Shown here piece by piece: positions 33,507 to 49,323 of a DNA stretch of 64,000 bases; position 1 is the stretch's first letter; each line of letters opens with the position of its first letter. Origin of the DNA: a virus (Duplodnaviria; Heunggongvirae; Uroviricota; Caudoviricetes); IMG/VR virus record IMGVR_UViG_3300029288_007064, one strand, 5' to 3'. The notes under the pieces were generated by a model that made no database searches, was not told where the DNA came from, and saw nothing but the letters and a program-made list of their open reading frames with translations. The translations under genes and the position numbers were made by a program.

Positions 33507-33752
33507 TTACATCACCTGAGATAATTGATTCAAAAATTTCTTTGGTGGGTCGCCATCTTTATAGTGAGCAATGATATCAAATTGTGCTCTATGCATTTCT
33601 TTCCGTCTTTTTACTACTATTTCAATAACCTTATCAGAGAATCCATATTCGAATTCATTTTTGAATCGTGTAAATAAACTATGGATATCGGCATAATCGG
33701 AGTACTTGCTAGGCAAGTTCTTATATTTTATTTTGATTTGGTATTCTTTCAT
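33507..33752 (-). CDS. hypothetical protein
   Basis: 81 aa; 4-nt overlap with the XPF-like gene. Confidence 0.35.
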   Translation of the reverse strand: MKEYQIKIKYKNLPSKYSDYADIHSLFTRFKNEFEYGFSDKVIEIVVKRRKEMHRAQFDIIAHYKDGDPPKKFLNQLSQVM

Positions 33753-34441
33753 TTTAACACCTCTTTTCCTTCTATGAATGTCATTATTTCTTTTGCTGTT
33801 TTTGGACCGATTCCCTCTAGCTCGCTCAACTCTTTTTCTGATGCCGTCATCAATATTTTTAGACTAGGATATTTTTTTGCAATTACTTTTGCTCTTTTTG
33901 CACCTATTCCAGCTATTGCTGTAAACATGCTAGCGAATCTCTGTTCAAAAGAAAATGAAAGTTTTACTATATCTTTTGGTGAAGGGCATTCTCCAGATTT
34001 TTCACAAATCGCTTTAAGTTTGTATGAAAATTCAGAAGGGGTATCTGTTCGAATAACCTTTATTCCATATTTTTCTATTAAAGAAATTTCTGCACCAAAA
34101 CATTGATGCAATATTGCTCCGGCTTCTTGTTGATTAAATCTCTTCATAGATTTTAATAACTTCTCCCAATTACCTACAATAATAATATAACAATTTTTGT
34201 AGTTGGAAGTGAGATTCAATGCTTGATCGAAAATTCTACCATTCTTTATTGAAGAATAAAAATCTCCAACCGATTTCACTTCTATCGCGATGCCCTTGGT
34301 TTCGTATAAAATGTCCCCAATTAATAATCTTTTGCGTTCCACAACAAAATATTCTTTTAATGCCTCTAACCGCGTTTCGATTATCGAGTTCATTTCTTCT
34401 CGGTCGTCTAAAAATATTGTTGGTTTTTCTTCCTTTTCCAT
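33749..34441 (-). CDS. XPF/Hef/Mus81-family ERCC4 nuclease (short archaeal form) with tandem helix-hairpin-helix
   Basis: 230 aa. ERCC4 motif IFLDDREE...VVERKRLLIGDIL; (HhH)2: IAGIGAKRAKVI and LEGIGPKTAKEI. Confidence 0.75.
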   Translation of the reverse strand: MEKEEKPTIFLDDREEMNSIIETRLEALKEYFVVERKRLLIGDILYETKGIAIEVKSVGDFYSSIKNGRIFDQALNLTSNYKNCYIIIVGNWEKLLKSMKRFNQQEAGAILHQCFGAEISLIEKYGIKVIRTDTPSEFSYKLKAICEKSGECPSPKDIVKLSFSFEQRFASMFTAIAGIGAKRAKVIAKKYPSLKILMTASEKELSELEGIGPKTAKEIMTFIEGKEVLK

Positions 34442-34445
34442 GGCG

Positions 34446-34790
34446 TTATTCCTCCTGTTTTATCAATGCTAGCATAACTTTTAATTCATTTTTCAAGTTA
34501 TCGCAATCTATTTTTACCATTTCTTTTTGCCTAAGAAGACTAACTAATCTTTGTTTTACATCTTGATATTCTTTATCTTGGAATAACCGATTATCTATCT
34601 CCAATTCTCTGCGTGCTTCGTTGGAATAAACACTCTTACCCGTGTTCGTTATTTCATCATAAACTCCTATTTTCGTTGGTAATTCCAAGCGTGCCTTTTG
34701 GTCGGCAACTTCAAATATCTGCTCATTTAGAGTAGATAACGCCAATTCCTTGTCCCTTATTAGTTTAGGTAGTTCTTCAAGTTTATTCAT
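34446..34790 (-). CDS. coiled-coil hypothetical protein
   Basis: 114 aa. Confidence 0.35.
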   Translation of the reverse strand: MNKLEELPKLIRDKELALSTLNEQIFEVADQKARLELPTKIGVYDEITNTGKSVYSNEARRELEIDNRLFQDKEYQDVKQRLVSLLRQKEMVKIDCDNLKNELKVMLALIKQEE

Positions 34791-35050
34791 TCTTTCACCT
34801 TCTTCATCAATTTTTTTAACTCTTTCATAAATTCTATCTTTTTGTGTCTTGTAATAACTATTTCATATGGGGTTGTATATGTTTTCCTATGGTATAATAC
34901 AAACATTCCATTATAATCTTCTTCTCCTTCCAATCTATCCTTAATGAAATCTAAACAAGATAAATATCGTGGATAACCATGAGTATAGATTTCTGTTTTT
35001 GGCTTATAGTAACATATTTTCCATAGCACTTTACAACGTCTTGTAACCAT
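34787..35050 (-). CDS. hypothetical protein
   Basis: 87 aa. Confidence 0.35.
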   Translation of the reverse strand: MVTRRCKVLWKICYYKPKTEIYTHGYPRYLSCLDFIKDRLEGEEDYNGMFVLYHRKTYTTPYEIVITRHKKIEFMKELKKLMKKVKE

Positions 35051-35173
35051 ATTTATCCCTTTCTTTTGCTAATTTTTTCATATAAATGATTTTTGTATCT
35101 ATCAAATTCTTCCCAAAACTCTTTCCACTTAACGTTGTTAGCTTTTATCAACGAACCATTTCTTTCTTGCATA

Positions 35174-37348
35174 TTATATCCACTCATCTAATTTTTGTTG
35201 TGATGTTTTTGCTTTCCATCCAAGTGCTTCATAGATACGTTCTACATTATTATCAATTATTAGTGGCATTTGCTTATTCCAATCAATTTTAAAATCTTCT
35301 GGGAATTTATCATAGAAACCAACTACATTTGTCTTTGGCTTATTCGGTGGTGAAATAACATACGCCCATTTTACCTTTTCCATAGGGTCGAATGTTATTC
35401 CAAGATTATCCATAGAATATTTAATTGCTCTAACATGAATTGGTAAATTTTTATAATCTTCAAACTTTCTAGATACTGATTTTGGTATTCCTATTTCATC
35501 GTACTTTGTGTTTTTCATCATTTCTTCTTTTTCTATTGTTATGTACTTTTCTATATCTTCTTGTGTTTTTTCATCTAATAACATTCTAAACACTTTTTCT
35601 TGTATACGTTTTCCTGCTTTTGGTGTATCTGAACGTACTAATTCAAAACCAGTTACACTTAGAATATCTGCCAATTCTTTTCCATCTTTATAACAAAGAT
35701 AACCTACGTATCTTTTTTTGGCAGATGAAAAGTATATCTTACTAAATACTTTTTCGAACTCGAGGAATAACACATGCTTCTTTATTCCCTTTTGCTTAGT
35801 AAATTCCTCGAATGAATCGTTTATGTGTTTTTGTATTGTTTGTGCTTCTTTTACTACATTTTGTAATTCTTTTTCGTTTGCTTGTATAAATATACTATCC
35901 GTATCCGAAGCTTGTATCTTATATCCTTTCTCTTCTATTTTTTTTATTACAAATTTAATCACTTCTCTTCCCATATATGTTACGCTTTCGGCTGCTTCCC
36001 TCTTATAGAGACGGAATCCTGGATAACCTTGTGCTCCATACGCGGAATTTAATACACATTTTACTGCGTATTGTTTCAAATAATATGAATGATATTCAGA
36101 AGTGTTATATGGATATTTTTTCATTTCTTCTTTATATTTCTTTCTTAATTCAAACAAGTCTTTAATAACCGACGGAATGAGACCTTCCGGTGTTGATTTG
36201 AAACGATGTCCATTACCTATGTCGATATCACCATTCTTATCGTATGATTCCCCTCCGATATTGCAAGAAACGATTATACTCGGGTACAAGCTTTTCATAT
36301 CAAATACTATTACATTTTTATAAACTCCAGATGTAGGCGAATGAACATATGCGCCTTCTATCGGTTCTTCTTGTGTATGTCTTATTTTTGTCGGTAATAT
36401 AATTCCACGTTCTTTTGCTTTTCTTAAAACTAAAGTATCTATTATCATGCTATTTTGTTCTAGCATAGACCACGGACAACCGACCATTCTTCTTAATTCA
36501 TCGAAGTAGTTAATTATAGAAATCTTTTTATCCAATTCTACGATTAACTTTACGTCTTCTAAATTGTAATCAAGAAGTTTTTGTACGTCATTCTCCCACA
36601 TTTCTCCGATAGATTGCTCGTTTTTTATTTTTCCTCTTCCTAGTTCTTTTTGTGCGACGAATTCAAGTGAAAAACTTTCTAGTTGTGTAAATGCAAGTTT
36701 TTTATATGCGTTTTTCAAATCAAATACTATTCTACCTTTTAATCGAATATCATATTCTTCTCCTTTACCTATATATCCTTGCCCGAATCTACATAATTTA
36801 TTTGCATCGATTTTTAACTTTAACATTCTATTAAATAAATACTTCACATCATAGTAGACATGCCAACCCGTTATTAAATCTGGATTAGTTTTTTTAATAA
36901 AATCGAGGAATAACACTAACATGTCTTCTTCGCTTTTACATGCGTATATACTCCATTCTTCCGTTTTCTTGCTTTCTCCTTTCCATGTAAATGTTATATA
37001 TTTTTTTAATTTTGTGTCATAACAACAAATAGAAAGGATTGGTTCTGGAGTGTTTTCATCATCAATAGACATTAGCGTTTCTATATCTAGATAATTTATT
37101 CTTATGTCTTCTTTTGGCATGGGTATTTTTATTCTATCGATAAGGAAGCGTTGCAAATATGGAACATCGGCTTCAAAAGTTATTGGATAATTCTTGCGCA
37201 TATCTCTAACGTCATTTGGCTGTTGTGCTATTACTTTGTTCTTTTTATCATCATAAAAGTATGGTTGGAAATCTCTGATAGTTTCTATTTTACCATTAGC
37301 ATGGAATAATAATATGTCTTTTTGGTTTACTATTTCACAAGTAATCAT
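35174..37348 (-). CDS. polB: family B DNA polymerase with 3'-5' exonuclease domain
   Basis: 724 aa. Exo I YLDIETL; motif A DMKSLYPSII; motif B KCVLNSAYG; motif C ASDTDSIF. Confidence 0.95.
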   Translation of the reverse strand: MITCEIVNQKDILLFHANGKIETIRDFQPYFYDDKKNKVIAQQPNDVRDMRKNYPITFEADVPYLQRFLIDRIKIPMPKEDIRINYLDIETLMSIDDENTPEPILSICCYDTKLKKYITFTWKGESKKTEEWSIYACKSEEDMLVLFLDFIKKTNPDLITGWHVYYDVKYLFNRMLKLKIDANKLCRFGQGYIGKGEEYDIRLKGRIVFDLKNAYKKLAFTQLESFSLEFVAQKELGRGKIKNEQSIGEMWENDVQKLLDYNLEDVKLIVELDKKISIINYFDELRRMVGCPWSMLEQNSMIIDTLVLRKAKERGIILPTKIRHTQEEPIEGAYVHSPTSGVYKNVIVFDMKSLYPSIIVSCNIGGESYDKNGDIDIGNGHRFKSTPEGLIPSVIKDLFELRKKYKEEMKKYPYNTSEYHSYYLKQYAVKCVLNSAYGAQGYPGFRLYKREAAESVTYMGREVIKFVIKKIEEKGYKIQASDTDSIFIQANEKELQNVVKEAQTIQKHINDSFEEFTKQKGIKKHVLFLEFEKVFSKIYFSSAKKRYVGYLCYKDGKELADILSVTGFELVRSDTPKAGKRIQEKVFRMLLDEKTQEDIEKYITIEKEEMMKNTKYDEIGIPKSVSRKFEDYKNLPIHVRAIKYSMDNLGITFDPMEKVKWAYVISPPNKPKTNVVGFYDKFPEDFKIDWNKQMPLIIDNNVERIYEALGWKAKTSQQKLDEWI

Positions 37349-38535
37349 TCGGTATCACCTAACCAATCATACAATTTTCCTTGCTTCGTTTCTCCTTTTA
37401 TTCTTTCTTCTGCTATCTTAAAATATTCTGGTGAAAGTTCTATTCCAATAAAATTCCTTCCCAATGCGTCGCAAGCAATTCCAGTTGTGCCACTACCCAT
37501 AAAAGGGTCTAATACAGTGTACCCTATTTTGGTCGTGAGTTTAATTAGGTGCTCCATAAGGGCAACTGGCTTGACAGTTGGATGATTGTTGATTCGTGGA
37601 TTTAATTTCCATTCCTCTAATTCTCCTGTTTTTGAATTTACTCTTTTTTCATAACCAGAATAAAATTGATTTTGATTTCCTTCATAAACCAAATTCTCTT
37701 CCTTCTCCCCCTTACTCGTCTTCGGTATTAGAAAGAACTTGCTCAACTTCCCGAAGCACTCTTCCTGCATTAATAGGTTGGATGGGAAACGACCTTTATC
37801 ATTACACTCTCTATTTTCTGGAGCATCTTTCCTTTCAGCTTCCCCATAAACATTCGTGCTTCTTTTCTTATATTGAAAGGGGATTACTTCTTCTCCTTCT
37901 TCGTAAGGTATCCGGCACTCATCCACGTTATACCCGCCTACCCCGTGCTTCATTACATTCTCCGTTATGCTCCCCTCGCACGGCTTCTGTGCAACCACTA
38001 TCGGTTCAAACGCAGGTTTAAGGGCGGGAGTTTTCCAACCCGACCATTCCTTTGCTTGCGGGAGAGTTGGTTCTTTCCAAGTAAATTCCTTTGTGTTCTT
38101 TCCCCCGTCAGCAACATACTCCCTTCCTTCACAATTAGGGCGAGCATTAGGAGAGGGCACTCCCGTATCCTCTCCTTTTCCCCCTAACTTCTTTTCTATC
38201 AGCATCCCCAAATCCTGTGCTTTCGGGAATCCTTGCATATACACCCAACACAGTTCATCCCGTATCATAAACCCCGCATCCTCAATCCCGCAGGTCAAAC
38301 GGTGATGCGTTCTCGTTCCGCCCATAGCAAACATGAACCCGCCTGGTTTGAGAATGCGGAGAGCTTCGGTTGCCCATTTAAAATTAAATTCTTGAAAATC
38401 TTTTCCTGTTCCTATACAATCAAATTCTTTTTTCATGAAGAATAAATTATATGGTGGATCTGTTATGATTGCATCTATGCTATTCGATGGAAGTTCCTTC
38501 ATTTTCTCTATGCAATCTCCCAATATAAGTTTCAT
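37345..38535 (-). CDS. DNA methyltransferase (N6-adenine/N4-cytosine; motif IV before motif I)
   Basis: 396 aa. N-terminal IITDPPYNL (motif IV) and C-terminal VLDPFMGSGTTGIA (motif I). 4-nt overlaps with polB and with the next MTase. Confidence 0.85.
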   Translation of the reverse strand: MKLILGDCIEKMKELPSNSIDAIITDPPYNLFFMKKEFDCIGTGKDFQEFNFKWATEALRILKPGGFMFAMGGTRTHHRLTCGIEDAGFMIRDELCWVYMQGFPKAQDLGMLIEKKLGGKGEDTGVPSPNARPNCEGREYVADGGKNTKEFTWKEPTLPQAKEWSGWKTPALKPAFEPIVVAQKPCEGSITENVMKHGVGGYNVDECRIPYEEGEEVIPFQYKKRSTNVYGEAERKDAPENRECNDKGRFPSNLLMQEECFGKLSKFFLIPKTSKGEKEENLVYEGNQNQFYSGYEKRVNSKTGELEEWKLNPRINNHPTVKPVALMEHLIKLTTKIGYTVLDPFMGSGTTGIACDALGRNFIGIELSPEYFKIAEERIKGETKQGKLYDWLGDTE

Positions 38536-39566
38536 TCCAACACCGCTTGCTTATTCTCTATCATGAAATCAAATTTATCCTTTATAGCATTAACATCTCC
38601 CTTGTAAAACACATATAGTTGCTCATGCGCCTTCCCAACTTTTTTACTACCGTTGAACGTTCTAGTTGCGCGAATGGGCAACGTGCCAAACGGTTTTAAT
38701 ATTATTATTTCATTGTATTTTTTGCAACCGTTTCTTGTAAAAATATCAACCGTGCGTTCCGGAAAGTTTTTGTAATAACCACTCTTATCTCGTATATCTC
38801 CAACAACTATTGCATAAAAACTATTGTCATTTAATTTCTCTATGCTTTTCTTGATAATACTTTCATATACGGTCAAAAATGTGTCATAATCCATATTAGA
38901 TAAATCAGAAGGGTCATCACAATACGTTTCTAAATCGTGATATGGCGGACAAGTAAAAACAAAATCGAATTTTTCATTTATAGTATCTAACACTACATTG
39001 CTGTCTCCGGTGATATATGAAGGTTGATTGTTTGGTGTAATAACTTTACCTTGTTCTATATTTTCTTCTACTTGTTCCGCTCTAAGTTCTATTCCGGTGT
39101 ATTTGTAATCCAAATATGATGCTACTATTCCCCGAACGCTTCCCCCCGCGAAAGGGTCAAGTATTTTACCCTTTTTAACGCAAAACCATCTATACATTAT
39201 TTCACAAACAACAGGGTCAAAAACCGAAGTTCCTATCATGGGTTTTCTTCCGTATGCAACCCATTTTTCTTGAGTCATTAGCATGTTGCAAGGTGCGTCT
39301 CTCCCCTTTTCACTTTTAATTCCGAGCGAAAGCCAAAAATGTTTTCTATCTAACCAATAAGATTGCATTGAGTCTAAAATGCTAAAAGGTGGAACTATAA
39401 ATTTGTCAACTAATTTCTTGGGCGTTTGAACAACAAATGTTTTATTTGGGGTGCTAAGTATGGCGGGTTCTTCGGGCATTTTCTCCGTTAATTGTGTGGG
39501 TGCTACGGTTGGTATTTGTTCGTTCTGTTCGCCCGTAAAATAAGCGTCTAGTGCTTTTTGTGCCAT
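38532..39566 (-). CDS. DNA methyltransferase (motif I before motif IV)
   Basis: 344 aa. ILDPFAGGSVRGIVA (motif I) followed by FVFTCPPYHD (PPY motif IV). Confidence 0.75.
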   Translation of the reverse strand: MAQKALDAYFTGEQNEQIPTVAPTQLTEKMPEEPAILSTPNKTFVVQTPKKLVDKFIVPPFSILDSMQSYWLDRKHFWLSLGIKSEKGRDAPCNMLMTQEKWVAYGRKPMIGTSVFDPVVCEIMYRWFCVKKGKILDPFAGGSVRGIVASYLDYKYTGIELRAEQVEENIEQGKVITPNNQPSYITGDSNVVLDTINEKFDFVFTCPPYHDLETYCDDPSDLSNMDYDTFLTVYESIIKKSIEKLNDNSFYAIVVGDIRDKSGYYKNFPERTVDIFTRNGCKKYNEIIILKPFGTLPIRATRTFNGSKKVGKAHEQLYVFYKGDVNAIKDKFDFMIENKQAVLE

Positions 39567-39570
39567 AATA

Positions 39571-40062
39571 TCAACCCATCCATTGTTCTAAGTTCGTTAT
39601 TGGTTTCTTGTCTTTTATTTCAATTTTAACTTGCTCAATTTTCACTCCCAATTGTTCTGCTTGTTTTTTGTCAAAACCGAATGCCTTCACTAATCTTCTT
39701 TTTTCTTCTTCGTCAATTAATCCAATATTTTGTTTTAATTCACGTTCACTCCAATTAAAGTATCGTTTTAGAGAATCTCTCCAAAATAACAACTTTTCAT
39801 CTTTCTTACTCTTTTTCGTGAATTGCACCCAAGGTTGTTTTTGTTTTGGAATGGAATAATACATTATTGAATACCATAAGTTTTTCGGTATCCAAAATGT
39901 ATATTTATTTAATTCGTTGCATATCTTTGTATTTGGTTTATGTAATGCTAAGAAACGATTTACTATGAAAGGAGATATAGTAGTTTCGGTATTAAGTGGT
40001 GTTGCTTTAGAATAAAAATTGTTTATAAACCCGAATAAATCTTCCGCCATTATTCCACCCAA
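39571..40062 (-). CDS. hypothetical protein in replication cluster
   Basis: 163 aa, Trp/Tyr-rich. Confidence 0.35.
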   Translation of the reverse strand: MGGIMAEDLFGFINNFYSKATPLNTETTISPFIVNRFLALHKPNTKICNELNKYTFWIPKNLWYSIMYYSIPKQKQPWVQFTKKSKKDEKLLFWRDSLKRYFNWSERELKQNIGLIDEEEKRRLVKAFGFDKKQAEQLGVKIEQVKIEIKDKKPITNLEQWMG

Positions 40063-40194
40063 GTTCCTAAATTACTTTGCTTTGCGTTTGATATTTTGTG
40101 TATGCAAACCGACCCATATAATTGTCCATTCATTGATTTAGGATGCTTTAGTTTTCTATTGCATCGATAACATTTTTCTTCTTGTTCCATACAT

Positions 40195-41091
40195 TCACAT
40201 CAAATCTGATAACACTTCCAAGAATGCTAAAAAGTTTATACTTTCATCCGCAATAAATGTAGTTCGGTATAATCTTTCTGCTATTTCGATAAGTATTTTA
40301 CTTTTCTTCCTGGCTTCCATTTTTTCATTAAATACTCTATCGAATATATCTTTATATAAGTCTACATAATCTATATTATGTTCTTCTATCAATTGTTTTA
40401 TTTCCACCGTTTTCTTTTGTTTCATTAGTTCCCATATGGAATTAAAAACGCTAATATGTTCTACTAATGTTGATTTTGAAACCTTTCCGTTTTTAATAGA
40501 ATATTGTAAAGAATTTATGGTTTTTCTCAAATCAGGAAACTCACGATTTACTATATCTTTAAGTGCATCTTCCTCATATTCTATTTTCTCTTCCTTACAT
40601 ATTTTAATTAATCTATTTAGTATTTTTACTTTATCAGATGGTTTAAACTCAATAGATACTGTTCTTGAAATTAATGGTTCTATTATTTTATTCTTGTAGT
40701 TTGCAGTTAAAATAAATCTACAACTTCGTGAATACGTCTCCATTAAATTACGAAGAGATTGTTGCGCTTCACCAGTCATTCCGTCTGCTTCATCAAGACA
40801 TACTATGCGGATTTTATTATCTGAAACACATGCAAATGCTTTTATCTTATCACGAACTACTTGAATACCACGTTCGTCTGAAGAATTTAAAATTAAAACA
40901 TTAGACCCTATTTTATTTGCTATTATACGAGCCAATGTCGATTTACCAGTACCAGCTTTGCCATGAAATAACAAATGAGGAAGTTTTTCTTGTGGTGATT
41001 CTATCATGGAAATTATTTGATGCTTTATTGCATCATCTAGAATCATGTCGTCCAATTCTTTTGGTCTCCATTTTTCGCACAAGATATTCAT
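40195..41091 (-). CDS. replication factor C small-subunit-like clamp loader AAA+ ATPase
   Basis: 298 aa. WRPKELDD (RFC box II), PHLLFHGKAGTGKST (Walker A), CLDEADGM (DEAD), ISRTV (SRC-like). Confidence 0.9.
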   Translation of the reverse strand: MNILCEKWRPKELDDMILDDAIKHQIISMIESPQEKLPHLLFHGKAGTGKSTLARIIANKIGSNVLILNSSDERGIQVVRDKIKAFACVSDNKIRIVCLDEADGMTGEAQQSLRNLMETYSRSCRFILTANYKNKIIEPLISRTVSIEFKPSDKVKILNRLIKICKEEKIEYEEDALKDIVNREFPDLRKTINSLQYSIKNGKVSKSTLVEHISVFNSIWELMKQKKTVEIKQLIEEHNIDYVDLYKDIFDRVFNEKMEARKKSKILIEIAERLYRTTFIADESINFLAFLEVLSDLM

Positions 41092-41846
41092 GCCTTCGCC
41101 TCTTCTGTTTTTACCTCTTCATCTACTGTGAACGGTGGACATACATTAGTAAACTTCATTCCGTTCTTTTCGTAGTAAGTTTGCATTGGACCACCTTCCA
41201 TCATGGAAACTTTTATTTTTCCATTTGCATTGGCGAATAGACTTTCAAATCCAGCTTTGAAATAGGATTTTATATTGCCGACTCCAACAATAGATGTCTT
41301 TTCTACAAAATAATCCATTTTTCTATCACCAGAGCAAATATAAAGTTGCCCGTCTTTTATTCCAACTTCGTATATGGAATCCTTTCCTATTGCACCCGCA
41401 TTTGATATCGCATCTTGGAATAACTCAACATTTATATCAAACGTGTGTGTATATGGAATTGTTTTTGACATTTTAGCAACTTGGACATAATCCTTAGCTG
41501 GCATAACAAAATATGCTTCTTTTTCCCCAGCTTTAATAAGCAAGCGGTTATCTTGCGTTGCTACAGTAATCTTTTTCTTGAACCTTCCTAAATATCCAAT
41601 AAGTTTTACAATATCTATCGTAGATATGAATTCTTCGGGTTGTCCTTCAAAAGATGAAATAATCGCTTTTGGCATCTCTGCTTTTACCATTCTAGTCACT
41701 TCTGGGTTTTTAGCAGAACAAACCAAACCATCGGGAGAATATTCTATAAGAATTTCGACTATTTTCCCGTCATCACTACCCTTTATACCTTCGAGGTATT
41801 CCACTAGTGTTTCGACATCTATGTTAAATTTCATTTCAATCACCAT
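41088..41846 (-). CDS. PCNA-like sliding clamp (candidate)
   Basis: 252 aa, the size of a two-domain PCNA, between RFC and primase with 4-nt overlap. No decisive motif by eye. Confidence 0.5.
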   Translation of the reverse strand: MVIEMKFNIDVETLVEYLEGIKGSDDGKIVEILIEYSPDGLVCSAKNPEVTRMVKAEMPKAIISSFEGQPEEFISTIDIVKLIGYLGRFKKKITVATQDNRLLIKAGEKEAYFVMPAKDYVQVAKMSKTIPYTHTFDINVELFQDAISNAGAIGKDSIYEVGIKDGQLYICSGDRKMDYFVEKTSIVGVGNIKSYFKAGFESLFANANGKIKVSMMEGGPMQTYYEKNGMKFTNVCPPFTVDEEVKTEEAKA

Positions 41847-42887
41847 TTATACGTACACATTATGATTACAATCTTTGAAAAAACAAAAACCATTTTGCAC
41901 CAAAGTTTGATGCGAAGGGAAGAACCAATCATCACCCTTCTTCCTATAAACGTATTCCAATTGATTTTCACATTTCTTTCCATTGTACCTCTCATGTATT
42001 TTTCCTACACAATGATAATATTTTTCTGATATCAAATATTTCTTCAGAACACTATCTATCATTTTTAATGTATAACCCGTTTCCATCAAATATGTAATAA
42101 TGACTCCTCTCTCCCTGTGATTAGGGTTCCCCTTTTTTAAATGGTACGCAACACACTTGGGGAGGGAGGATAAAAACTTGTCATCTTTAACTTCCGCAAT
42201 AACATCTTCATTTACTTGAGCATTTTGCAAGTTATTCGTAAAGAATTTGGAATAACCTTCTAGTTTCAATAATTTTTCTCCTTCTATTTTATAGGATTTA
42301 CGCTGTTGTTTTGCTATTTCAGAGATTTGTTCTTCTGAAAGAGACAGCAATTCGTCACCGGAGAGTGGAATAGCATACCTCATACGTTTTGTATTCAGAG
42401 TAAAGGGTATTGTTGCTATTCGTGCTAAATCACCTACTACTTGGTGGTCTACGGTCACATCTAATTCTTTTTCCAAATAAAATTGGAATCCTCTTAATTC
42501 TGTTTTATCTGTAGTTTCTTCTGTAAAAACGTAAATATGAAATCCCTTACCGGAAAAAATAACTACATGCTTTATATTTCTTTCTATGAGCCACTTGTGG
42601 ATTTTTCTTGCGTTGGAAATGCCGTCATCCAAATCTATGAAAACAGACGTTATGCTAGGTGTTCTGTTTTTGTCATGATAATCATATACCGTTGCAAAAC
42701 AACGTGTTGTTCCATTTGTTTTGTTTATTAAATCCGATAACTCATTCATATTATTTACTTTGATTCTGTACGGGCGAGCGAATTCCCGTGGAAATTTATT
42801 ATAAAGTATCTTTAGTAGCCCCATCTTCCTTCCCCTCCTCTTCAAGCAAATCTTCGTCATCTGTCCAATGTGAACACGTTTCTGCAT
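41847..42887 (-). CDS. archaeo-eukaryotic primase (AEP) superfamily primase / PrimPol-like with C-terminal Cys/His cluster
   Basis: 346 aa. Motif I VFIDLDD, motif II SGKGFHIYV, motif III HQVVGDLARIATIPFTLNTK. Start may be an internal Met (42824 or 42749) because of overlap with the next ORF. Confidence 0.7.
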   Translation of the reverse strand: MQKRVHIGQMTKICLKRRGRKMGLLKILYNKFPREFARPYRIKVNNMNELSDLINKTNGTTRCFATVYDYHDKNRTPSITSVFIDLDDGISNARKIHKWLIERNIKHVVIFSGKGFHIYVFTEETTDKTELRGFQFYLEKELDVTVDHQVVGDLARIATIPFTLNTKRMRYAIPLSGDELLSLSEEQISEIAKQQRKSYKIEGEKLLKLEGYSKFFTNNLQNAQVNEDVIAEVKDDKFLSSLPKCVAYHLKKGNPNHRERGVIITYLMETGYTLKMIDSVLKKYLISEKYYHCVGKIHERYNGKKCENQLEYVYRKKGDDWFFPSHQTLVQNGFCFFKDCNHNVYV

Positions 42888-43095
42888 TTAATTGATATTG
42901 ATGAACCATTCCACACATTGAACATTTATACAACATAATAGTAGTAAGATTATATTTTGGGTCTCTAGGCATACCCATACAACATTTGTTTCTAACTTCT
43001 TCTGACCTATATTGCTTACCACAGGTTTGACAAATATAAAAAGTAATGGGAATAGCACGAATAACTTTTTGCTTATTCCCTTCTTCTGTGGTCAT
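42799..43095 (-). CDS. zinc-ribbon protein
   Basis: 98 aa; CQTCG...CSMCG. Confidence 0.4.
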   Translation of the reverse strand: MTTEEGNKQKVIRAIPITFYICQTCGKQYRSEEVRNKCCMGMPRDPKYNLTTIMLYKCSMCGMVHQYQLNAETCSHWTDDEDLLEEEGKEDGATKDTL

Positions 43096-43115
43096 TATGT
43101 ATCACCCTATATATA

Positions 43116-44000
43116 CTATTCTCCCAACGGTTTTAGTTCTTTTATTTTATCAAAAGTTAATTCTTCAATTGGTGTTGTAGGTGGTCTCCTTATTCCACAT
43201 TTTTCACATACTGCTATATATTTTCCATTTGATTTCTTCATATTAAAAATTAAATCAGAAGAGAAAGGAATATCTTTTTGGCATCTAATTTTTTCCTTAT
43301 TCTGTGCAAGAGCATTCCCTACTTGATATTCAGGTACGGACTTTTCTCTTGCTGTGAATACTACAAAAATTCCTTTCTTAACAAGAGAACGTAGTATTCT
43401 TACTATACCATCATGTTTATTTGTAGCTACTTTCCAGTCGAGTTGACTCAATACTGTTTGCATATCAGCATCAGCACGTGCTTCTCCTTTCTTTGTTCGC
43501 ATAGTTGATAATTTATCAAACATATAAGCCATGCACCATCCCCAACAATCAGTTACACTATCAATTACTAATGTTCCTCCTTTTATTTTTCCACTATTTA
43601 CCGCCTTTACATAAGATGAAAGAAAATCCGTTAAGTTATTTATGCTAGCAACTTCATCAAATATATCATCCATGCTTCTATTTACATTCTCTTTTATTTC
43701 TGTTGGTTCAAATACATATATTTTCTTTCCTTTATGAAGCTGTTTAGTATTAATTGCTCTGTTTTCTGTATCAATAACAAATATAGGTTCCTGGAATGTA
43801 AATGCAGTAAAAGTTTTTCCTGTAGCGGTATCCCCGTACAAAAGAGTAACAAAACCTCTCTTCTTTACATCTTCTTCGGTTATTTCTTCAAACCCTTCGT
43901 ATGTAAATGGATCATCAGAAACTTCTTCTTTCTTTGGTAAAGAAGAAGGAGAAGAAGATGGAATTTTTATTCCATCAAGTACTCCTACCATACTTACCAT
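43116..44000 (-). CDS. RecA-superfamily P-loop ATPase (Sak4/AAA_24-like or DnaB-core-like; exact family unresolved)
   Basis: 294 aa. Walker A LLYGDTATGKTFTA; Walker B-like TLVIDSVTD; C-terminal CEKCG zinc ribbon. Confidence 0.5.
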   Translation of the reverse strand: MVSMVGVLDGIKIPSSSPSSLPKKEEVSDDPFTYEGFEEITEEDVKKRGFVTLLYGDTATGKTFTAFTFQEPIFVIDTENRAINTKQLHKGKKIYVFEPTEIKENVNRSMDDIFDEVASINNLTDFLSSYVKAVNSGKIKGGTLVIDSVTDCWGWCMAYMFDKLSTMRTKKGEARADADMQTVLSQLDWKVATNKHDGIVRILRSLVKKGIFVVFTAREKSVPEYQVGNALAQNKEKIRCQKDIPFSSDLIFNMKKSNGKYIAVCEKCGIRRPPTTPIEELTFDKIKELKPLGE

Positions 44001-45010
44001 TCTCCTGTTACCTTAGTTGGCTCTGCTACTTCCTCGTTTTTCTTTACGAACTCCGGAGATAACCAATAAAGTATAGAATTTGCTGCGATACTTTTAGTTT
44101 CTGCATTATATCCAGAAATTTCGCAAAGAATATTTATAGAATAATTTTCAACTATTCTTTGTCCATTCAATGTTTGTGCATATACCTTTATTTGAGATAT
44201 TGTATCAAAATCTGGGGTATCTAAGGTTATCTCATATTTCTTATCATCACCAACATCCCCTCTTACGTTTTGCACTAGGAAGTTTTTTAACAAAACCCTA
44301 GAGTTTTTGTTATCTTTTATTTTAATTAATTCATCAAAACTTCCTTCTTTGCTATAATCTATTGTCAAAACATCTTTGCAAAATAGTTCTGAAATAGTTG
44401 ATATTTCTTCTGGTTTTGCTTTTTCTAGAACCTTTGCATCGTTTCCATACAATTGATAATACATTTTATTTTCTGTAGACCACTTAGTTATTTTTTGTGC
44501 TCTAACAACTATCTCGTGTCCGATAATTATTTTATTTGCTATTTCTGGTAACCGTATTTCTAAATCTACTGGGATTATCTTACCATTTACATTCGTAACG
44601 CAATAAAATATCGCTTTAAAATCTTGTGTGGGGATTACTTTTCCTGCCCTTTTTGCATCGGTATATAAGTAATTTCCCTCATCATCTATCATTCCAAGAT
44701 TTATTGCTTCTTCTTTTCCTTTACTAGATATTACTCTTTTTATTTTATCACGACTTTTTTTTGCCCAATCAATGGATGTAGAACCCAATACTATTAATGA
44801 AACATTCTCAATTCCTTGCCTAGTTTTCAATTTCAAAGAAGACCTTGTTCTTTCATACGCTCTCTCTTTAATGACTTCTTCGGGTGCTTCAATAGTTTCC
44901 TTTAGAGTTTTAAAATTTTCCTCAAAAAGCCCCGTTACTTCCTCAAAATTCAATCCGGTTTTCTGGGCTAGCGCCCTCAACTTTTCATTCATCGTATCAC
45001 CGATTAACAA
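43994..45010 (-). CDS. hypothetical replication-cluster protein, possible OB-fold ssDNA-binding protein
   Basis: 338 aa; first gene next to the iteron region; beta-rich repeated segments. Weak call. Confidence 0.3.
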   Translation of the reverse strand: MLIGDTMNEKLRALAQKTGLNFEEVTGLFEENFKTLKETIEAPEEVIKERAYERTRSSLKLKTRQGIENVSLIVLGSTSIDWAKKSRDKIKRVISSKGKEEAINLGMIDDEGNYLYTDAKRAGKVIPTQDFKAIFYCVTNVNGKIIPVDLEIRLPEIANKIIIGHEIVVRAQKITKWSTENKMYYQLYGNDAKVLEKAKPEEISTISELFCKDVLTIDYSKEGSFDELIKIKDNKNSRVLLKNFLVQNVRGDVGDDKKYEITLDTPDFDTISQIKVYAQTLNGQRIVENYSINILCEISGYNAETKSIAANSILYWLSPEFVKKNEEVAEPTKVTGEW

Positions 45011-45124: not shown

Positions 45125-45336
45125 CTTCGACGTGAAATTTAATTTCTACGACGTAAAAGTTTAAATTTTAAACCAAAACATCAAAAAATATTTTTCTACC
45201 GTCGTGAAATTTGGTTTAAAAAATAAACCACGAACACGGAAATATAAATTCACCGTCGTGACGGTTTAAAAATTAAACCACTTTTGCGAAAAATAAAAAT
45301 TTACCGTCGTAAATTCCGGTTTAAAAATTAAACCGG
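45125..45336. repeat. iteron array: four ~51-55 bp direct repeats, each with a CCGTCGTGA-type box and a GGTTTAAAAATTAAACC palindrome (putative replication origin)
   Basis: Palindromes centred near 45166, 45221, 45271 and 45326. CGTCGT boxes at 45128, 45148, 45200, 45253 and 45303, with another at 45494. Lies between divergent replication genes and the plus-strand block. Confidence 0.7.
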
Positions 45337-45578
45337 ATATCAACACCGCTATTTTATACTAACTATAACGAATAGGCAAAGGTTTAAGAAACCTTGTGAA
45401 AACAAAGATTTAAATAACTTTGCAAAGAAGAATTATTGAAACTATTATTTTGTTGAACACGTTTCTACCGCCATGTTTTTGGCGACCAAAATATTCACTG
45501 TCGTAAAATGTCGGAAAAAGCAAAGGATTAAAAAGAGGGACTACCTAATATAAGAGATTGGAAGAATAGGTGATTGGA

Positions 45579-45749
45579 ATGGGTCCGAAAAAATGTACTT
45601 TTTGTGGAAAAGAATTAAGATATAAAGATGGGATTTTTTGTAAAACTGATTTAGAATGTAAAAAAGTAAGAGCTCTTGAAACTATTGCGGATAGACTCCT
45701 TTCTATTGAATGTATTCTTGAAAATATTTATAATACATTAGAAAAATAA
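45579..45749 (+). CDS. zinc-ribbon protein
   Basis: 56 aa MGPKKCTFCGKELRYKDGIFCK...; preceded by AGGTGATTGG SD-like sequence. Confidence 0.35.
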   Translation: MGPKKCTFCGKELRYKDGIFCKTDLECKKVRALETIADRLLSIECILENIYNTLEK

Positions 45750-45767
45750 ACTTCAATAATTATTAAG

Positions 45768-45989
45768 GTGATTAGAATGGAAAACAAAGAATGGAGAAAA
45801 ATAATTTATGATGATTATGGTAGAGCTACTCCCAAAAGTGGTATATTTGTTCGAGAAGATACCGATTTCGTCTACTTAATGACAAATGAAGAGAAAAATA
45901 TAATAGAAGCAATTCAGAAAAAGAAAATAGTTCGAATGGAAATTAGAATGGATGAAACATCTTCCAAAGAAGGTGAGCGGGATGTCTAA
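45768..45989 (+). CDS. small hypothetical protein
   Basis: 73 aa. Confidence 0.3.
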   Translation: MIRMENKEWRKIIYDDYGRATPKSGIFVREDTDFVYLMTNEEKNIIEAIQKKKIVRMEIRMDETSSKEGERDV

Positions 45990-48825: not shown

Positions 48826-48827
48826 TG

Positions 48828-49010: not shown

Positions 49011-49027
49011 ATTATCACTCTCGTTTC

Positions 49028-49321: not shown

Positions 49322-49323
49322 CT

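What the first reader, a model, noticed from the sequence alone, without database searches (positions are those of the whole stretch)
33749..45010. Compact, self-contained archaeal-type replisome cluster on one strand
Eleven kilobases of minus-strand genes with 4-nt overlaps encode:
- a short XPF/Hef ERCC4 nuclease with (HhH)2;
- a 724-aa family-B polymerase;
- two DNA methyltransferases of different motif order;
- an RFC small-subunit homolog (a single subunit, no large subunit seen);
- a PCNA-sized protein;
- an AEP primase-polymerase with a Cys/His C-terminus;
- a RecA-like ATPase and a possible SSB.
Around it there are no translation or transcription housekeeping genes, and the cluster abuts an iteron region. 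This is the signature of a large archaeal virus or virus-like element (magrovirus-like gene content) rather than a host chromosome.
Basis: partly seen in the sequence, partly recalled or inferred. Interest (0 to 1): 0.6.

Follow-up and report, generated by a model that had tools for sequence, protein, structure and literature searches.

The report
Viral-type DNA replication gene module
This 11-kb gene cluster is the DNA-replication module (polymerase, sliding clamp, two-part clamp loader, primase, recombinase, nuclease, methylases) of a complete ~94-kb circular mobile element, most likely a virus of an uncultured archaeon; it is a new member of a known kind of viral replisome, not a new system.

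Summary
Window 33749-45010 (minus strand) is one tight operon-like cluster with 4-nt overlaps. It encodes XPF-(HhH)2, family-B polymerase, two methyltransferases of opposite motif order, an RFC-S/gp44-like ATPase, a true PCNA-family clamp, a PriS-like AEP primase and a Sak4/RadA-like ATPase, next to a real iteron array.

- The clamp loader is not a lone subunit. The 163-aa ORF just downstream is a homolog of the phage gp62 small subunit, and the order clamp-ATPase-small subunit...polymerase is that of T4 genes 45-44-62-43.
- The replisome is not shown to be self-contained. No helicase, ligase or SSB is recognisable. A divergently transcribed P-loop + winged-helix protein beside the iterons is only a candidate.

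The window is not chromosomal. It is 64 kb of a 93,817-bp circularly assembled element with no rRNA or tRNA genes. About 20 IMG/VR viral contigs carry the same module. The nearest cultured relatives are haloarchaeal tailed viruses.

An archaeal host is likely (~0.7), based on GGTG ribosome-binding sites, PCNA, archaeal-like PolB and DPANN bin labels. Virus status is probable (~0.65) but unproven: no capsid, portal or terminase gene is detectable, and instead there is an FtsK/HerA-like ATPase within a membrane-protein block.

The parts
45158..45334 (.). Iteron array in the 559-nt divergent intergenic region. It has four ~53-nt units, each with ACCGTCGT-type and GGTTTAAAAATTAAACC near-palindromic elements. 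It is a candidate replication origin or operator.
   Evidence: The 17-mer family occurs only here. ACCGTCGT occurs 3 times here and once elsewhere in the ~93 kb read.
43994..45010 (-). First gene of the leftward operon: a conserved 332/338-aa protein of unknown function (probable start at 44992).
   Evidence: No Pfam, PHROG, NCBIfam or PDB hit. 14 homologs lie in related viral loci, usually upstream of the AAA_24 gene. The AF2 single-sequence model had pLDDT 35.
43116..44000 (-). RecA-fold ATPase of the AAA_24 / Sak4-like family (ssDNA annealing or recombination mediator).
   Evidence: Pfam AAA_24 E 1e-12; phrog_124 Sak4-like E 3e-16. Homologs are present in 7 IMG/VR relatives.
42799..43095 (-). 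98-aa protein with two CxxC pairs (zinc-ribbon-like).
   Evidence: Sequence read directly. It is called as a gene in the source assembly.
41847..42887 (-). Archaeo-eukaryotic primase (probable start at 42824, 325 aa). It has a PriS-like catalytic domain and a Cys/His-rich C-terminal domain that resembles PriL-CTD.
   Evidence: Motifs FIDLDD, SGKGFHIY and VDHQ..R..P.T.N are present. hhalign to the HRTV-27 primase gives 92 %, E 6e-7. The top PDB hits are all primase subunits but weak, E 0.03-0.9. Homologs are present in 16 IMG/VR relatives.
41088..41846 (-). PCNA-family sliding clamp (252 aa).
   Evidence: 57 full-length homologs were found. Their profile hits archaeal and eukaryotic PCNA over the full length, E 1e-31. 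9 members hit Pfam PCNA_N. The relationship to T4 gp45 is only partial: 82 %, E 1e-5.
40195..41091 (-). Clamp-loader AAA+ ATPase (RFC small subunit / gp44 homolog). It has Walker A GKAGTGKST, Walker B LDEAD and an SRT arginine finger.
   Evidence: PDB: A. fulgidus RFC-S E 3e-47, T4 gp44 E 8e-30. phrog_168 E 2e-73; Pfam AAA and Gp44_lid. Cyanophage gp44 35 % identity, E 8e-46.
39571..40062 (-). Clamp-loader small subunit, a gp62 homolog (about 159 aa, probable start at 40050). Its C-terminus ...NLEQWMG is conserved.
   Evidence: phrog_225 E 2e-12. tblastn hits only gp62 of T4-like phages. hhalign gives 97 % (E 7e-11) to S-SKS1 gp62 and 93 % (E 2e-7) to Aeromonas phage 65 gp62. There is no direct similarity to T4 gp62 itself. 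The gene is conserved downstream of the ATPase gene in L005 and L007.
38532..39566 (-). DNA methyltransferase with motif I (FAGGS) before motif IV (CPPY). The N-terminal region is weakly ParB-nuclease-like.
   Evidence: Pfam N6_N4_Mtase E 2e-11; phrog_12517 E 2e-91; phrog_498 E 5e-70; phrog_15396 E 1e-4.
37345..38535 (-). Beta-class N6/N4 DNA methyltransferase (DPPY...FMGSG) ending in a PIP box, QGKLYDWL.
   Evidence: Pfam N6_N4_Mtase E 1.5e-44; phrog_67 E 2e-75. PIP-box scan.
35174..37348 (-). Family-B DNA polymerase with 3'-5' exonuclease. It ends in a PIP box, QQKLDEWI.
   Evidence: Pfam and PHROG hits. PDB: Thermococcus PolB E 1e-64 against RB69 gp43 E 9e-35. The best cultured relatives are haloarchaeal tailed viruses at 27-29 % identity. 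Invariant catalytic residues. PIP box.
34446..35050 (-). Two small ORFs of unknown function: 87 aa and 114 aa. The second looks coiled-coil-like by eye.
   Evidence: They were not scanned against any library; only the assembly's precomputed Pfam, which shows no hit.
33749..34441 (-). Short XPF/Mus81-family nuclease: ERCC4 domain plus (HhH)2. Its catalytic signature reads DDRE...GD...EVKxxxD, with V in place of the usual R of ERK.
   Evidence: Pfam ERCC4 E 7e-17; HHH_2 and HHH_5 E 2e-11. Sequence. Homologs are present in 3 IMG/VR relatives, and an ERCC4 gene is present in L007.
45570..45989 (+). Two small rightward ORFs (59 aa, Cys-rich zinc-ribbon-like; 73 aa) preceding the P-loop protein.
   Evidence: The homolog of the P-loop gene in L022 is also preceded by a small overlapping ORF.
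45952..47349 (+). 455/465-aa P-loop NTPase with a C-terminal winged-helix-like domain. It is the candidate initiator or helicase (inferred).
   Evidence: The invariant residues are GTGK (Walker A), the G of the DEPG motif and R217 of GxLQR. The AF2 C-terminal 75 residues have pLDDT about 80 with an H-H-H-E-E pattern, while the rest of the model is poor. Homologs lie near PolB in L032, L034 and L043. The distant homolog P0183 weakly hits the C-termini of helicase and primase PHROGs, E 3e-4. There is no Pfam, PHROG, NCBIfam or PDB hit for the protein itself or its profile.

Best explanation
The cluster is the replication-recombination module of a complete ~93.8-kb circular (or terminally redundant) extrachromosomal dsDNA element. 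That element is most likely a virus of an archaeon.

**Proposed working (the parts are shown; the order of events is inferred).**
1. The iteron array at 45158-45334 lies between two divergent transcription units and serves as origin and/or operator.
2. A divergently encoded P-loop + winged-helix protein, or a host MCM, opens and unwinds the DNA.
3. The PriS-like AEP primase makes primers.
4. A T4-type two-component clamp loader loads a PCNA-type ring. The loader consists of an RFC-S/gp44-like ATPase and a gp62-like small subunit.
5. The family-B polymerase binds the ring through its C-terminal PIP box (QQKLDEWI).
6. The neighbouring methyltransferase carries its own PIP box (QGKLYDWL). It could ride the same clamp to methylate new DNA.
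7. The Sak4/RadA-like ATPase and the XPF-(HhH)2 nuclease provide strand annealing, recombination-dependent restart and flap or fork processing.

**Probabilities.** Replication module of a mobile element ~0.95. Element is a virus ~0.65. Host is archaeal ~0.7. The confidence value given is for the whole conjunction.
For: **Gene identities:**

**Motifs:** catalytic motifs are intact.

**Gene order:** the order equals T4 45-44-62-regA-43.

**PIP boxes:** strict C-terminal PIP boxes occur only in PolB and the adjacent methyltransferase, 2 of 157 proteins against 0.48 expected. PIP-like tails recur in PolB homologs.

**Iterons:** the array is unique to the divergent intergenic region.

**Extrachromosomal:** the assembly is circular at 93,817 bp, and the window has no tRNA or rRNA genes.

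**Module conserved in viruses:**
- L005 and L007 keep the synteny.
- About 20 IMG/VR UViGs share AEP (16 loci), clamp loader (13), Sak4 (7), XPF, gp62 and PCNA.
- L007 has tail-fibre and tape-measure-like genes.
- HVTV-1 and HRTV-27 have comparable modules.

**Archaeal host:**
- GGTG RBS occurs upstream of 45-53 % of genes, against 5-12 % for GGAGG/AGGAG-type motifs. GGTG(A) is described as an archaeal RBS form (PMC2784483, PMC4535381).
- The clamp is PCNA-type.
- PolB scores 222 bits to Thermococcus PolB against 123 bits to RB69 gp43.
- The AEP is homologous to a halovirus primase.
- The nearest named PolB homologs are in Woesearchaeota, Aenigmarchaeota and Micrarchaeaceae MAGs.
Against: - No capsid, portal or terminase gene is detectable in the ~93 kb that could be read (851 nt of the circle were never fetched), by Pfam, PHROG, NCBIfam or tblastn. 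The only packaging or transfer candidate is an FtsK/HerA-like ATPase.
- No helicase, ligase or SSB was identified. The P-loop/wH protein has no family hit, even as a profile, and its AF2 model is poor.
- The gp62-type small subunit is otherwise known from phages of bacteria, and the ATPase is as close to cyanophage gp44 (171 bits) as to archaeal RFC-S (165 bits).
- Some PolB relatives sit in bins labelled Dehalococcoidia, Paceibacterota, Saccharibacteria or Spirochaetia.
- RBS type varies across the clade.
- The XPF has EVK instead of ERK, so its activity is not assured.
- PIP-clamp contacts are inferred from motifs only.
Confidence: 0.5

Rival explanations
1. The same replication module belongs to a non-viral mobile element. 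This could be an integrative plasmid, a vesicle-borne 'plasmid-virus' intermediate or a conjugation-like element. Such an element would have acquired a virus-type replisome and would move by means of the membrane-protein block and the FtsK/HerA-like ATPase.
For: - No TerL, portal or MCP is detectable.
- The 485-aa ATPase has Walker A and B motifs ~240 residues apart. Its best matches are archaeal HerA: PDB 4d2i E 0.003, NCBIfam HerA E 0.001.
- The ATPase is surrounded by about 10 small polytopic membrane proteins and six type-I anchored surface proteins.
- A tyrosine integrase is present.
- The closest PolB relative, L005, also shows no structural genes in the 22 kb held.
Against: - No relaxase, VirB4, VirD4 or partition genes were detected.
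- Large self-encoded replisomes (PolB + clamp + loader + primase) are typical of viruses and are conserved in IMG/VR viral contigs.
- Clade members L007 and L022 carry tail or terminase genes.
- FtsK/HerA-type ATPases also package DNA in membrane-containing viruses (general knowledge).
- Archaeal virion proteins often escape sequence-based detection.
Confidence: 0.3
2. It is the replication module of a phage of bacteria. The phage would be a distant T4-like or jumbo phage, possibly of CPR/Patescibacteria or another uncultured lineage, rather than an archaeal virus.
For: - The gp62-type small subunit and the T4 gene order 45-44-62-43 are present.
- The ATPase is 35 % identical to cyanophage, rhizobiophage and pelagiphage gp44.
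- PHROG assigns PolB to the T4-like family phrog_262.
- PolB relatives occur in bins labelled Dehalococcoidia, Paceibacterota, Saccharibacteria and Spirochaetia.
- Two small proteins have faint GerE/sigma-70 region-4 hits.
Against: - The clamp matches PCNA over its full length, E 1e-31, and T4 gp45 only partially.
- PolB is far closer to Thermococcus PolB and halovirus PolBs than to RB69/T4 gp43.
- The primase is a PriS-like AEP homologous to a halovirus primase, not DnaG/gp61.
- There is no DnaB/gp41-type helicase.
- An XPF-(HhH)2 nuclease is present.
- GGTG-type RBSs dominate (PMC4535381).
- The closest named relatives are in DPANN archaeal bins.
- MAG bin labels on short contigs are unreliable in either direction.
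Confidence: 0.2
3. The window is part of an archaeal host chromosome, and the genes are the cell's own replication genes.
For: The PCNA, RFC-S-like and PolB sequences resemble archaeal cellular proteins.
Against: - The assembly is a circular 93.8-kb unit, seen in two assemblies.
- There are no rRNA, tRNA or other housekeeping genes.
- 138 of 157 ORFs lie on one strand, and most are ORFans.
- A gp62-like subunit replaces RFC-L.
- The element carries methyltransferases, an integrase and homing-endonuclease-like genes.
- The nearest homologs are viral contigs.
Confidence: 0.02

Closest known systems
Magrovirus (Aoguangviridae) replicative module (PMC5434244, PMC10768690)
   Same: - A compact block encodes PolB, sliding clamp, RFC-type clamp-loader ATPase, AEP primase, RadA-like ATPase and nucleases.
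- It sits on a ~100-kb uncultured element.
- An SNF2 helicase lies elsewhere in the genome.
- Halovirus, magrovirus and T4-like PolBs form one subclade (PMC7544198). This PolB was not placed on that tree here.
   Different: - No MCM helicase, recognisable SSB or ATP-dependent ligase was found here.
- The clamp loader has a gp62-type partner.
- No MCP, portal, protease or terminase module is detectable.
- The assembly is circular.
Haloarchaeal tailed viruses HVTV-1/HCTV-5 (Druskaviridae) and HRTV-27 (Hafunaviridae)
   Same: - They are the best cultured PolB relatives: 27-29 % identity, E 7e-72 to 1e-66.
- Methyltransferase genes adjoin PolB, nucleases lie next to it, and clamp-loader genes are nearby.
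- HRTV-27 has a homologous fused PriS/PriL-type primase.
   Different: - HVTV-1 has two RFC-like AAA+ subunits (327 and 417 aa) instead of an ATPase plus gp62.
- The haloviruses use RecB/Cas4 nucleases instead of XPF.
- Their GC content is 58-62 % against 34 % here.
- They have clear terminase and baseplate genes.
Bacteriophage T4 core replisome genes 45-44-62-regA-43
   Same: - The gene order clamp, loader ATPase, small loader subunit, polymerase is identical.
- The loader has two components, and its small subunit is homologous to gp62 of T4-like phages.
- The polymerase is tethered by a C-terminal clamp-binding tail.
   Different: - The clamp is PCNA-type, not gp45-type.
- PolB is closer to archaeal PolB.
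- The primase is an AEP instead of DnaG-type gp61.
- There is no gp41, gp59, gp32 or UvsX.
- Two methyltransferases replace regA between gene 62 and gene 43.
Archaeal cellular replisome (PCNA, RFC-S/RFC-L, PriS/PriL, PolB, XPF)
   Same: PCNA, the RFC-S-like ATPase, the PriS-like catalytic domain, PolB with a C-terminal PIP box and a short XPF-(HhH)2 all have their closest structurally characterised counterparts in archaea.
   Different: - There is no RFC-L, MCM, GINS, PolD, Fen1 or ligase.
- The primase is a single ~325-aa polypeptide.
- The genes are on a 94-kb mobile element.

Membership tests
T4-type clamp loader (gp44/gp62) | AAA+ ATPase subunit homologous to gp44/RFC-S with Walker A, Walker B and an S-R-x arginine finger | tested here: met
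   PDB T4 gp44 E 8e-30; Pfam Gp44_lid E 7e-10; phrog_168 E 2e-73. GKAGTGKST, LDEAD and SRT read.
T4-type clamp loader (gp44/gp62) | Small non-AAA+ subunit (gp62) encoded immediately downstream of the ATPase gene | tested here: met
   phrog_225 E 2e-12. hhalign gives 97 % and 93 % to cyanophage and Aeromonas-phage gp62. There is no direct hit to T4 gp62 itself, but Aeromonas gp62 is 30 % identical to T4 gp62.
T4-type clamp loader (gp44/gp62) | 4:1 ATPase-to-small-subunit complex that loads the cognate clamp | not testable with these tools
   This needs biochemistry or a complex structure prediction.
Archaeal RFC (RFC-S + RFC-L) | A second, larger AAA+ RFC-L subunit | tested here: not met
   No second RFC-like AAA+ gene appears among the ORFs of the ~93 kb read. 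These were scanned here or carry precomputed Pfam annotation.
PCNA sliding clamp | Full-length homology to the two-domain PCNA protomer (~250 aa) | tested here: met
   The profile of 54 homologs against PDB gives archaeal PCNA E 1e-31 over positions 6-232 of 234. 9 members hit PCNA_N and 4 hit PCNA_C.
PCNA sliding clamp | Partners carrying PIP-box motifs | tested here: met
   PolB ends in QQKLDEWI and the methyltransferase in QGKLYDWL. These are the only strict C-terminal PIP boxes among 157 proteins. Actual binding was not tested.
Family-B DNA polymerase (RNA/DNA-primed) | Exo I-III motifs and polymerase motifs A (DxxSLYPS), B (KxxxNSxYG) and C (DTD) | tested here: met
   Invariant D88/E90, D167, Y261/D265, D350/Y355/P356, K430/N434/Y437/G438 and D482-T483-D484. 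Pfam E 2e-46.
Archaeo-eukaryotic primase (PriS-like) | Catalytic motifs I (DxD), II (SGxGxH) and III (hD), with homology to known AEPs | tested here: met
   The motifs are invariant in 3 syntenic homologs. hhalign to the HRTV-27 primase gives 92 %, E 6e-7. PDB and NCBIfam hits to Pri1/PriS are only weak, E 0.009-0.9.
Archaeo-eukaryotic primase (PriS-like) | PriL-CTD-like (Fe-S) C-terminal domain fused to PriS | tested here: inconclusive
   PDB PriL hit at E 0.07 only. The resemblance of the PPCV..ML..WR.RYY..YLRE.G motif to PriL-CTD is from memory. The cysteines are not conserved in L007.
XPF/Mus81 nuclease | ERCC4 nuclease domain followed by a tandem HhH | tested here: met
   Pfam ERCC4 E 7e-17; HHH_2 and HHH_5 E 2e-11.
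XPF/Mus81 nuclease | Catalytic GDxnERKx3D signature | tested here: inconclusive
   The sequence reads GD...EVKSVGD, with Val in place of Arg. The effect on activity is unknown.
Magroviruses / Aoguangviridae | MCM helicase, SSB and (in most) a ligase within the replicative module (PMC5434244) | tested here: not met
   No MCM, SSB or ligase family hit appears in any ORF scanned here or annotated by precomputed Pfam.
Magroviruses / Aoguangviridae | Halovirus-like MCP, portal, prohead protease and terminase module | tested here: not met
   There are no hits by Pfam, PHROG, NCBIfam or tblastn with TerL queries. This is a sequence-level test only.
Caudoviricetes (head-tail viruses) | Terminase large subunit, portal and HK97-fold MCP | tested here: not met
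   As above. The one 'terminase' PHROG hit (E 9e-5) belongs to a protein with FtsK/HerA-type motif spacing whose best match is HerA. A fold-level test was not possible because the proteins lie outside the window and could not be submitted.

The most novel reading that the evidence does not exclude
The element is a large (~94 kb) non-head-tail archaeal virus, or a vesicle-transmitted virus-plasmid intermediate. It would combine a T4/halovirus/magrovirus-type replisome with a membrane-based morphogenesis or transfer module. That module comprises an FtsK/HerA-type ATPase, about 10 small polytopic membrane proteins, six glycosylatable type-I spike-like proteins of up to 2,591 aa, and its own glycosylation gene island. 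The host may be a DPANN archaeon. In this reading the replisome uses a previously undescribed P-loop + winged-helix protein family in place of MCM.
Probability: 0.25. Interest if true: 0.7.

Novelty: new member of a known kind. Interest (0 to 1): 0.4.

Why it matters
**Context.** Compact archaeal-type replisome modules on viruses have been known since the haloviruses and magroviruses. They are central to arguments about how PolB, PCNA and RFC moved between viruses and cells (PMC7544198).

**What this example adds:**
- It is a well-resolved, complete-genome case from a poorly sampled clade of about 20 uncharacterised IMG/VR contigs.
- It mixes a PCNA-type clamp and an archaeal-like PolB with a phage gp62-type loader subunit in T4 gene order. 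This fits the idea that the T4, halovirus and magrovirus modules share a common origin.
- The PIP-box-bearing methyltransferase suggests replication-coupled self-methylation that could be tested.
- Two conserved families of unknown function may fill the missing SSB/mediator and helicase/initiator roles: the 332-aa family and the P-loop + wH family.
- The lack of any head-tail genes in the ~93 kb read is the most interesting loose end.

Tried and rejected
**Searches for the element or close relatives**
- IMG/VR and JGI metagenome scans with single proteins or an exact DNA word found nothing.

**Searches for virion hallmark genes**
- PHROG, Pfam and NCBIfam scans of the genes outside the window were run. 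tblastn with HVTV-1 and L022 terminases and L007 tail proteins was also run. None gave a hit in this element.
- The 'terminase' PHROG hit of the 485-aa protein was rejected. Its Walker A-B spacing is ~240 aa, its best matches are HerA, and it has no phage or plasmid tblastn match.

**The 465-aa P-loop protein**
- A terminase role was rejected. It has no conserved acidic residues in the C-terminal half, and its homolog in L022 sits beside a genuine TerL.
- An MCM or SF3 helicase role could not be confirmed. No PDB hit was found as a single sequence or as a 7-member profile. hhalign to T4 gp41 was null. AF2 with 4 sequences gave pLDDT 51, so no fold search was run on it.

**The 338-aa 'SSB'**
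- No family or PDB hit was found, the AF2 model had pLDDT 35, and a PHROG scan of 12 family members was empty.

**Other**
- Direct similarity of the small subunit to T4 gp62 was null. Homology rests on the cyanophage and Aeromonas-phage gp62 proteins.
- Sample accessions are not in the paper library.
- A TATA-box survey of upstream regions gave no consistent promoter motif.
- Several exact-sequence look-ups failed because of start-codon differences.

Full report
**1. Observation**

Mechanical ORF calling shows an uninterrupted run of minus-strand genes from 45010 down to 33749. Several have 4-nt ATGA-type overlaps.

- **XPF.** The 230-aa protein is an ERCC4 nuclease with a C-terminal tandem helix-hairpin-helix (Pfam E 7e-17 and 2e-11).
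- **PolB.** The 724-aa protein is a family-B polymerase with an exonuclease domain (Pfam 2e-46, PHROG 6e-137). All exo and pol motifs are invariant in an alignment of 25 homologs.
- **Methyltransferases.** Both are N6/N4 enzymes, and they do differ in motif order. The 396-aa enzyme has DPPY near the N-terminus and FMGSG near the C-terminus. The 344-aa enzyme has FAGGS before CPPY.
- **Clamp-loader ATPase.** The 298-aa protein is a clamp-loader AAA+ ATPase (A. fulgidus RFC-S E 3e-47; T4 gp44 E 8e-30).
- **Clamp.** The 252-aa 'PCNA-sized' protein had no family hit on its own. An exhaustive HMMER search found 57 full-length homologs. Their profile matches archaeal and eukaryotic PCNAs end to end, with E 1e-31. 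The relationship to T4 gp45 is only partial (82 %, E 1e-5).
- **Primase.** The 346-aa ORF probably encodes 325 aa from Met22. It carries the three AEP motifs, which are conserved in syntenic homologs. It is homologous to the primase of Halorubrum virus HRTV-27 (hhalign 92 %, E 6e-7).
- **RecA-fold ATPase.** The 294-aa protein is an AAA_24/Sak4-like ATPase.
- **Iterons.** The adjacent intergenic region holds four ~53-nt units at 45158-45334. Each combines an ACCGTCGT element with a GGTTTAAAAATTAAACC near-palindrome, and the array is unique in the ~93 kb read.
- **RNA genes.** The window has no tRNA, rRNA or other Rfam family.

**2. Corrections and additions**

In fact the 163-aa ORF directly downstream (39571-40062) belongs to the phage clamp-loader small-subunit family.
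- It hits phrog_225 at E 2e-12.
- By tblastn it hits only the gp62 proteins of T4-like phages (36 records).
- hhalign gives 97 % (E 7e-11) to Synechococcus phage S-SKS1 gp62 and 93 % (E 2e-7) to Aeromonas phage 65 gp62.
- The Aeromonas protein is 30 % identical to T4 gp62. Direct comparison with T4 gp62 itself is null.
- The gene is conserved behind the ATPase gene in the relatives L005 and L007.

The order clamp, ATPase, small subunit ... polymerase is exactly that of T4 genes 45-44-62-regA-43. Here two methyltransferases stand where regA does. The ATPase is about equally similar to cyanophage gp44 (171 bits) and archaeal RFC-S (165 bits). The module is therefore a mosaic. It has a T4-type loader architecture, a PCNA-type clamp, and a PolB that is much closer to Thermococcus PolB (E 1e-64) than to RB69 gp43 (E 9e-35).

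*PIP boxes.* PolB ends in a canonical PIP box (QQKLDEWI). So does the neighbouring 396-aa methyltransferase (QGKLYDWL). These are the only strict C-terminal PIP boxes among 157 predicted proteins, against 0.48 expected. Many PolB homologs keep a similar tail, and the gp62-like protein has a conserved ...L..WMG end.

*Not shown to be self-contained.* No helicase, ligase or SSB is recognisable.
- The 338-aa 'possible SSB' is a conserved module member with 14 homologs in related viral loci. It has no detectable family, and its AF2 model was unusable.
- Across the iterons lies a divergently transcribed 455/465-aa protein. Its invariant residues are the Walker A (GTGK), the G of its DEPG motif and R217 of GxLQR. 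Its C-terminal domain is confidently modelled as winged-helix-like, while the rest of the model is poor (pLDDT 51).
- Homologs of that protein lie a few kb from PolB in three large IMG/VR relatives. A distant homolog weakly matches the C-termini of phage helicase and primase-helicase families.
- It is therefore a reasonable initiator or helicase candidate. However, neither it nor its 7-member profile hits anything in Pfam, PHROG, NCBIfam or PDB.

**3. What the window belongs to**

The PolB gene lies on a 93,958-bp contig of ENA assembly ERZ27247363. Mapping four fetched pieces onto the window gives the following.
- The contig begins at window position 15147 and ends at 15287.
- Its two ends therefore share 141 nt, which equals the assembler's k.
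- The window differs from the contig by 3 mismatches in 18.4 kb, so it comes from another assembly. It reads straight through the junction.

The element is therefore a 93,817-bp circular or terminally redundant genome, and the window is 64 kb of it. All but 851 nt of the remainder was fetched. Of the predicted ORFs, 138 of 157 lie on one strand.

Apart from the replication module, the element carries these features:
- A glycosylation island with UDP-glucose dehydrogenase, epimerases, four GT4 transferases and a nucleotidyl-transferase.
- Thg1-like and RlaP genes, an ankyrin protein, an SPFH protein, an apparently split SNF2 helicase and a tyrosine integrase.
- A ~35-kb block of ORFans (window 48.5 kb to extended coordinate 83.9 kb). 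It contains a 2,591-aa and a 1,314-aa surface protein and four more type-I anchored proteins. It also contains a CPBP protease, about ten small polytopic membrane proteins and a 485-aa FtsK/HerA-like ATPase.

No terminase, portal or capsid gene is detectable by Pfam, PHROG, NCBIfam or tblastn. The single 'terminase' PHROG hit belongs to the HerA-like ATPase. Its Walker A-B spacing and best matches argue against a terminase.

**4. Relatives**

- The best cultured PolB relatives are haloarchaeal tailed viruses at 27-29 % identity, followed by T4-like cyanophages.
- In the large protein collection, the nearest homologs (60 %, 43 %, 42 % ...) are unnamed metagenomic proteins. The few named ones come from Aenigmarchaeota, Micrarchaeaceae and Spirochaetia bins.
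- In GTDB genomes, relatives sit on short contigs of two Woesearchaeota MAGs and of Dehalococcoidia, Paceibacterota and Saccharibacteria bins.
- L005 (60 %) and L007 (43 %) keep the module's synteny.
- L007 also carries a 7-deazaguanine cassette like HVTV-1, plus tail-fibre and tape-measure-like genes.
- IMG/VR holds about 20 contigs of 23-113 kb with PolB at 30-43 % identity. They share the AEP (16 loci), clamp loader (13), Sak4-like ATPase (7), XPF, gp62-like subunit and PCNA.

The module is thus a recurrent feature of a viral clade. The membrane/ATPase block of this element was not found in the held parts of the relatives.

**5. Host domain**

GGTG(A) lies upstream of 45-53 % of genes, against 5-12 % for GGAGG/AGGAG-type motifs, with a 6 % background for GGTG. 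The closest relative L005 shares this pattern (42 %), whereas L007, L022 and most IMG/VR relatives do not. GGTG(A) is described as an archaeal RBS form (PMC2784483, PMC4535381).

Other evidence points the same way:
- The clamp is PCNA-type, and PolB is archaeal-like.
- The AEP is homologous to a halovirus primase, and an XPF-(HhH)2 nuclease is present.
- Thg1 and a PTH2-like protein are encoded.
- The surface proteins have C-terminal anchors and Thr-rich linkers.
- The closest named relatives are in DPANN bins.

Together these make an archaeal host likely (~0.7). Three points argue the other way: the gp62-type subunit, the similarity of the ATPase to cyanophage gp44, and the bacterial bin labels.

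**6. Comparison with known systems and verdict**

The gene content overlaps the magrovirus 'nearly complete archaeal-type replisome': DNAP, clamp, RFC, AEP, MCM, RadA-like ATPase, SSB, nucleases and ligase (PMC5434244). The element fails magrovirus membership on two counts. It lacks MCM, SSB and ligase, and it lacks the head-tail morphogenesis module. It resembles halovirus modules and shares loader architecture and gene order with T4. That fits the published view that halovirus, magrovirus and T4-like PolBs form one subclade (PMC7544198), although this PolB was not placed on that tree here.

The cluster is therefore a new member of a known kind of viral replisome module, with some variant features:
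- a gp62-type loader paired with PCNA
- a PIP-box methyltransferase
- a compact fused-type primase
- unknown proteins in the helicase and SSB positions

'Self-contained', 'single RFC subunit' and 'magrovirus-like' need qualification. 'Virus' remains probable but unproven for this particular element.

Noticed in passing
window 15147-15287 (junction of the source contig); whole element: The source contig (ENA ERZ27247363 k141_2937403, 93,958 bp) has a 141-nt terminal overlap equal to the assembler's k. The window reads through the junction. The genome is therefore a 93,817-bp circular or terminally redundant unit.
   Followed up: yes
L019:1-20735 (extended coordinates ~63.5-83.9 kb, just right of the window) and window 48500-63951: A ~35-kb block of ORFans. 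It contains about ten small polytopic membrane proteins and six type-I anchored surface proteins (358-2,591 aa; Thr/Ser/Pro linker, C-terminal TM and basic tail). It also contains a CPBP/Rce1-like protease, YdjM, a 1,314-aa beta-helix protein and a 485-aa FtsK/HerA-like ATPase (L019:4612-6069). No head-tail hallmark genes are present.
   Followed up: partly
window 55607-63382 (-): A giant 2,591-aa secreted and anchored protein with an N-terminal DUF2341 domain. It has no PHROG hit. It is followed by a 376-aa DUF1554-like protein at 54208-55338.
   Followed up: partly
window 1152-9028 and 18892-26637 (-): Glycosylation and sugar-nucleotide island. It includes UDP-glucose dehydrogenase (1152-2423), an epimerase/dehydratase (2644-3576) and GT4 glycosyltransferases (7913-9028, 18892-20004, 24349-25368, 25507-26637). 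It also includes a 501-aa protein with only a weak radical-SAM PHROG hit (20001-21506). Further epimerase, NTP-transferase and Glycos_transf_4 genes lie outside the window (L004).
   Followed up: partly
window 3573-4953 (-); L004:16454-16864: tRNA/RNA-related auxiliary genes. A Thg1-like tRNA-His guanylyltransferase lies at 4189-4953 (Pfam E 5e-33) and an RlaP nucleotidyltransferase at 3573-4178. A weak PTH2-like peptidyl-tRNA hydrolase lies outside the window.
   Followed up: no
window 13874-14491 (-): A 205-aa ankyrin-repeat protein (precomputed Pfam Ank_2, Ank_4, Ank_5). Its exact sequence could not be found in the look-up, although the gene is called in the source contig.
   Followed up: no
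window 21926-23669 (-): The SNF2-family helicase appears split into two overlapping ORFs: 22377-23669 (430 aa, N-terminal part) and 21926-22384 (152 aa). Both match a single 552-aa gene in relative L005. This could be a frameshift, an assembly error or a genuine split.
   Followed up: partly
window 26674-28574 (-): A 474-aa Band_7/SPFH (stomatin-like) protein with a 159-aa membrane protein just upstream. This is an unusual cargo for a virus-like element.
   Followed up: no
window 37345-37390 (C-terminus of the 396-aa methyltransferase): The DNA methyltransferase ends in a canonical PIP box (QGKLYDWL). Apart from PolB, it is the only protein among 157 that does. This suggests clamp-tethered methylation of nascent DNA.
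   Followed up: partly
L004:18143-18907 (outside the window): A 254-aa tyrosine recombinase (Pfam Phage_integrase), so the element may integrate. Its att site was not searched.
   Followed up: no
L019, extended coordinates ~77.5-77.83 kb (241-nt intergenic region between the HerA-like ATPase and the 318-aa gene): ACGACG/ACCGTCGT motifs like those of the iteron array recur here, next to a GGGGTTTAAACCCC palindrome. This could be a second binding site for the same factor.
   Followed up: partly
L007:4257-7766 (relative with 43 % PolB identity): A 7-deazaguanine DNA-modification cassette (QueD, QueE, QueC, FolE) lies between the clamp loader and PolB, as in halovirus HVTV-1. A LAGLIDADG endonuclease gene is inserted between the clamp-loader ATPase and gp62-like genes.
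   Followed up: partly
whole element and L005: The ribosome-binding sites are predominantly GGTG(A): 45-53 % of genes here and 42 % in L005. More distant clade members use AGGAG/GGAGG or neither motif. Hosts therefore probably differ within the PolB clade.
   Followed up: yes
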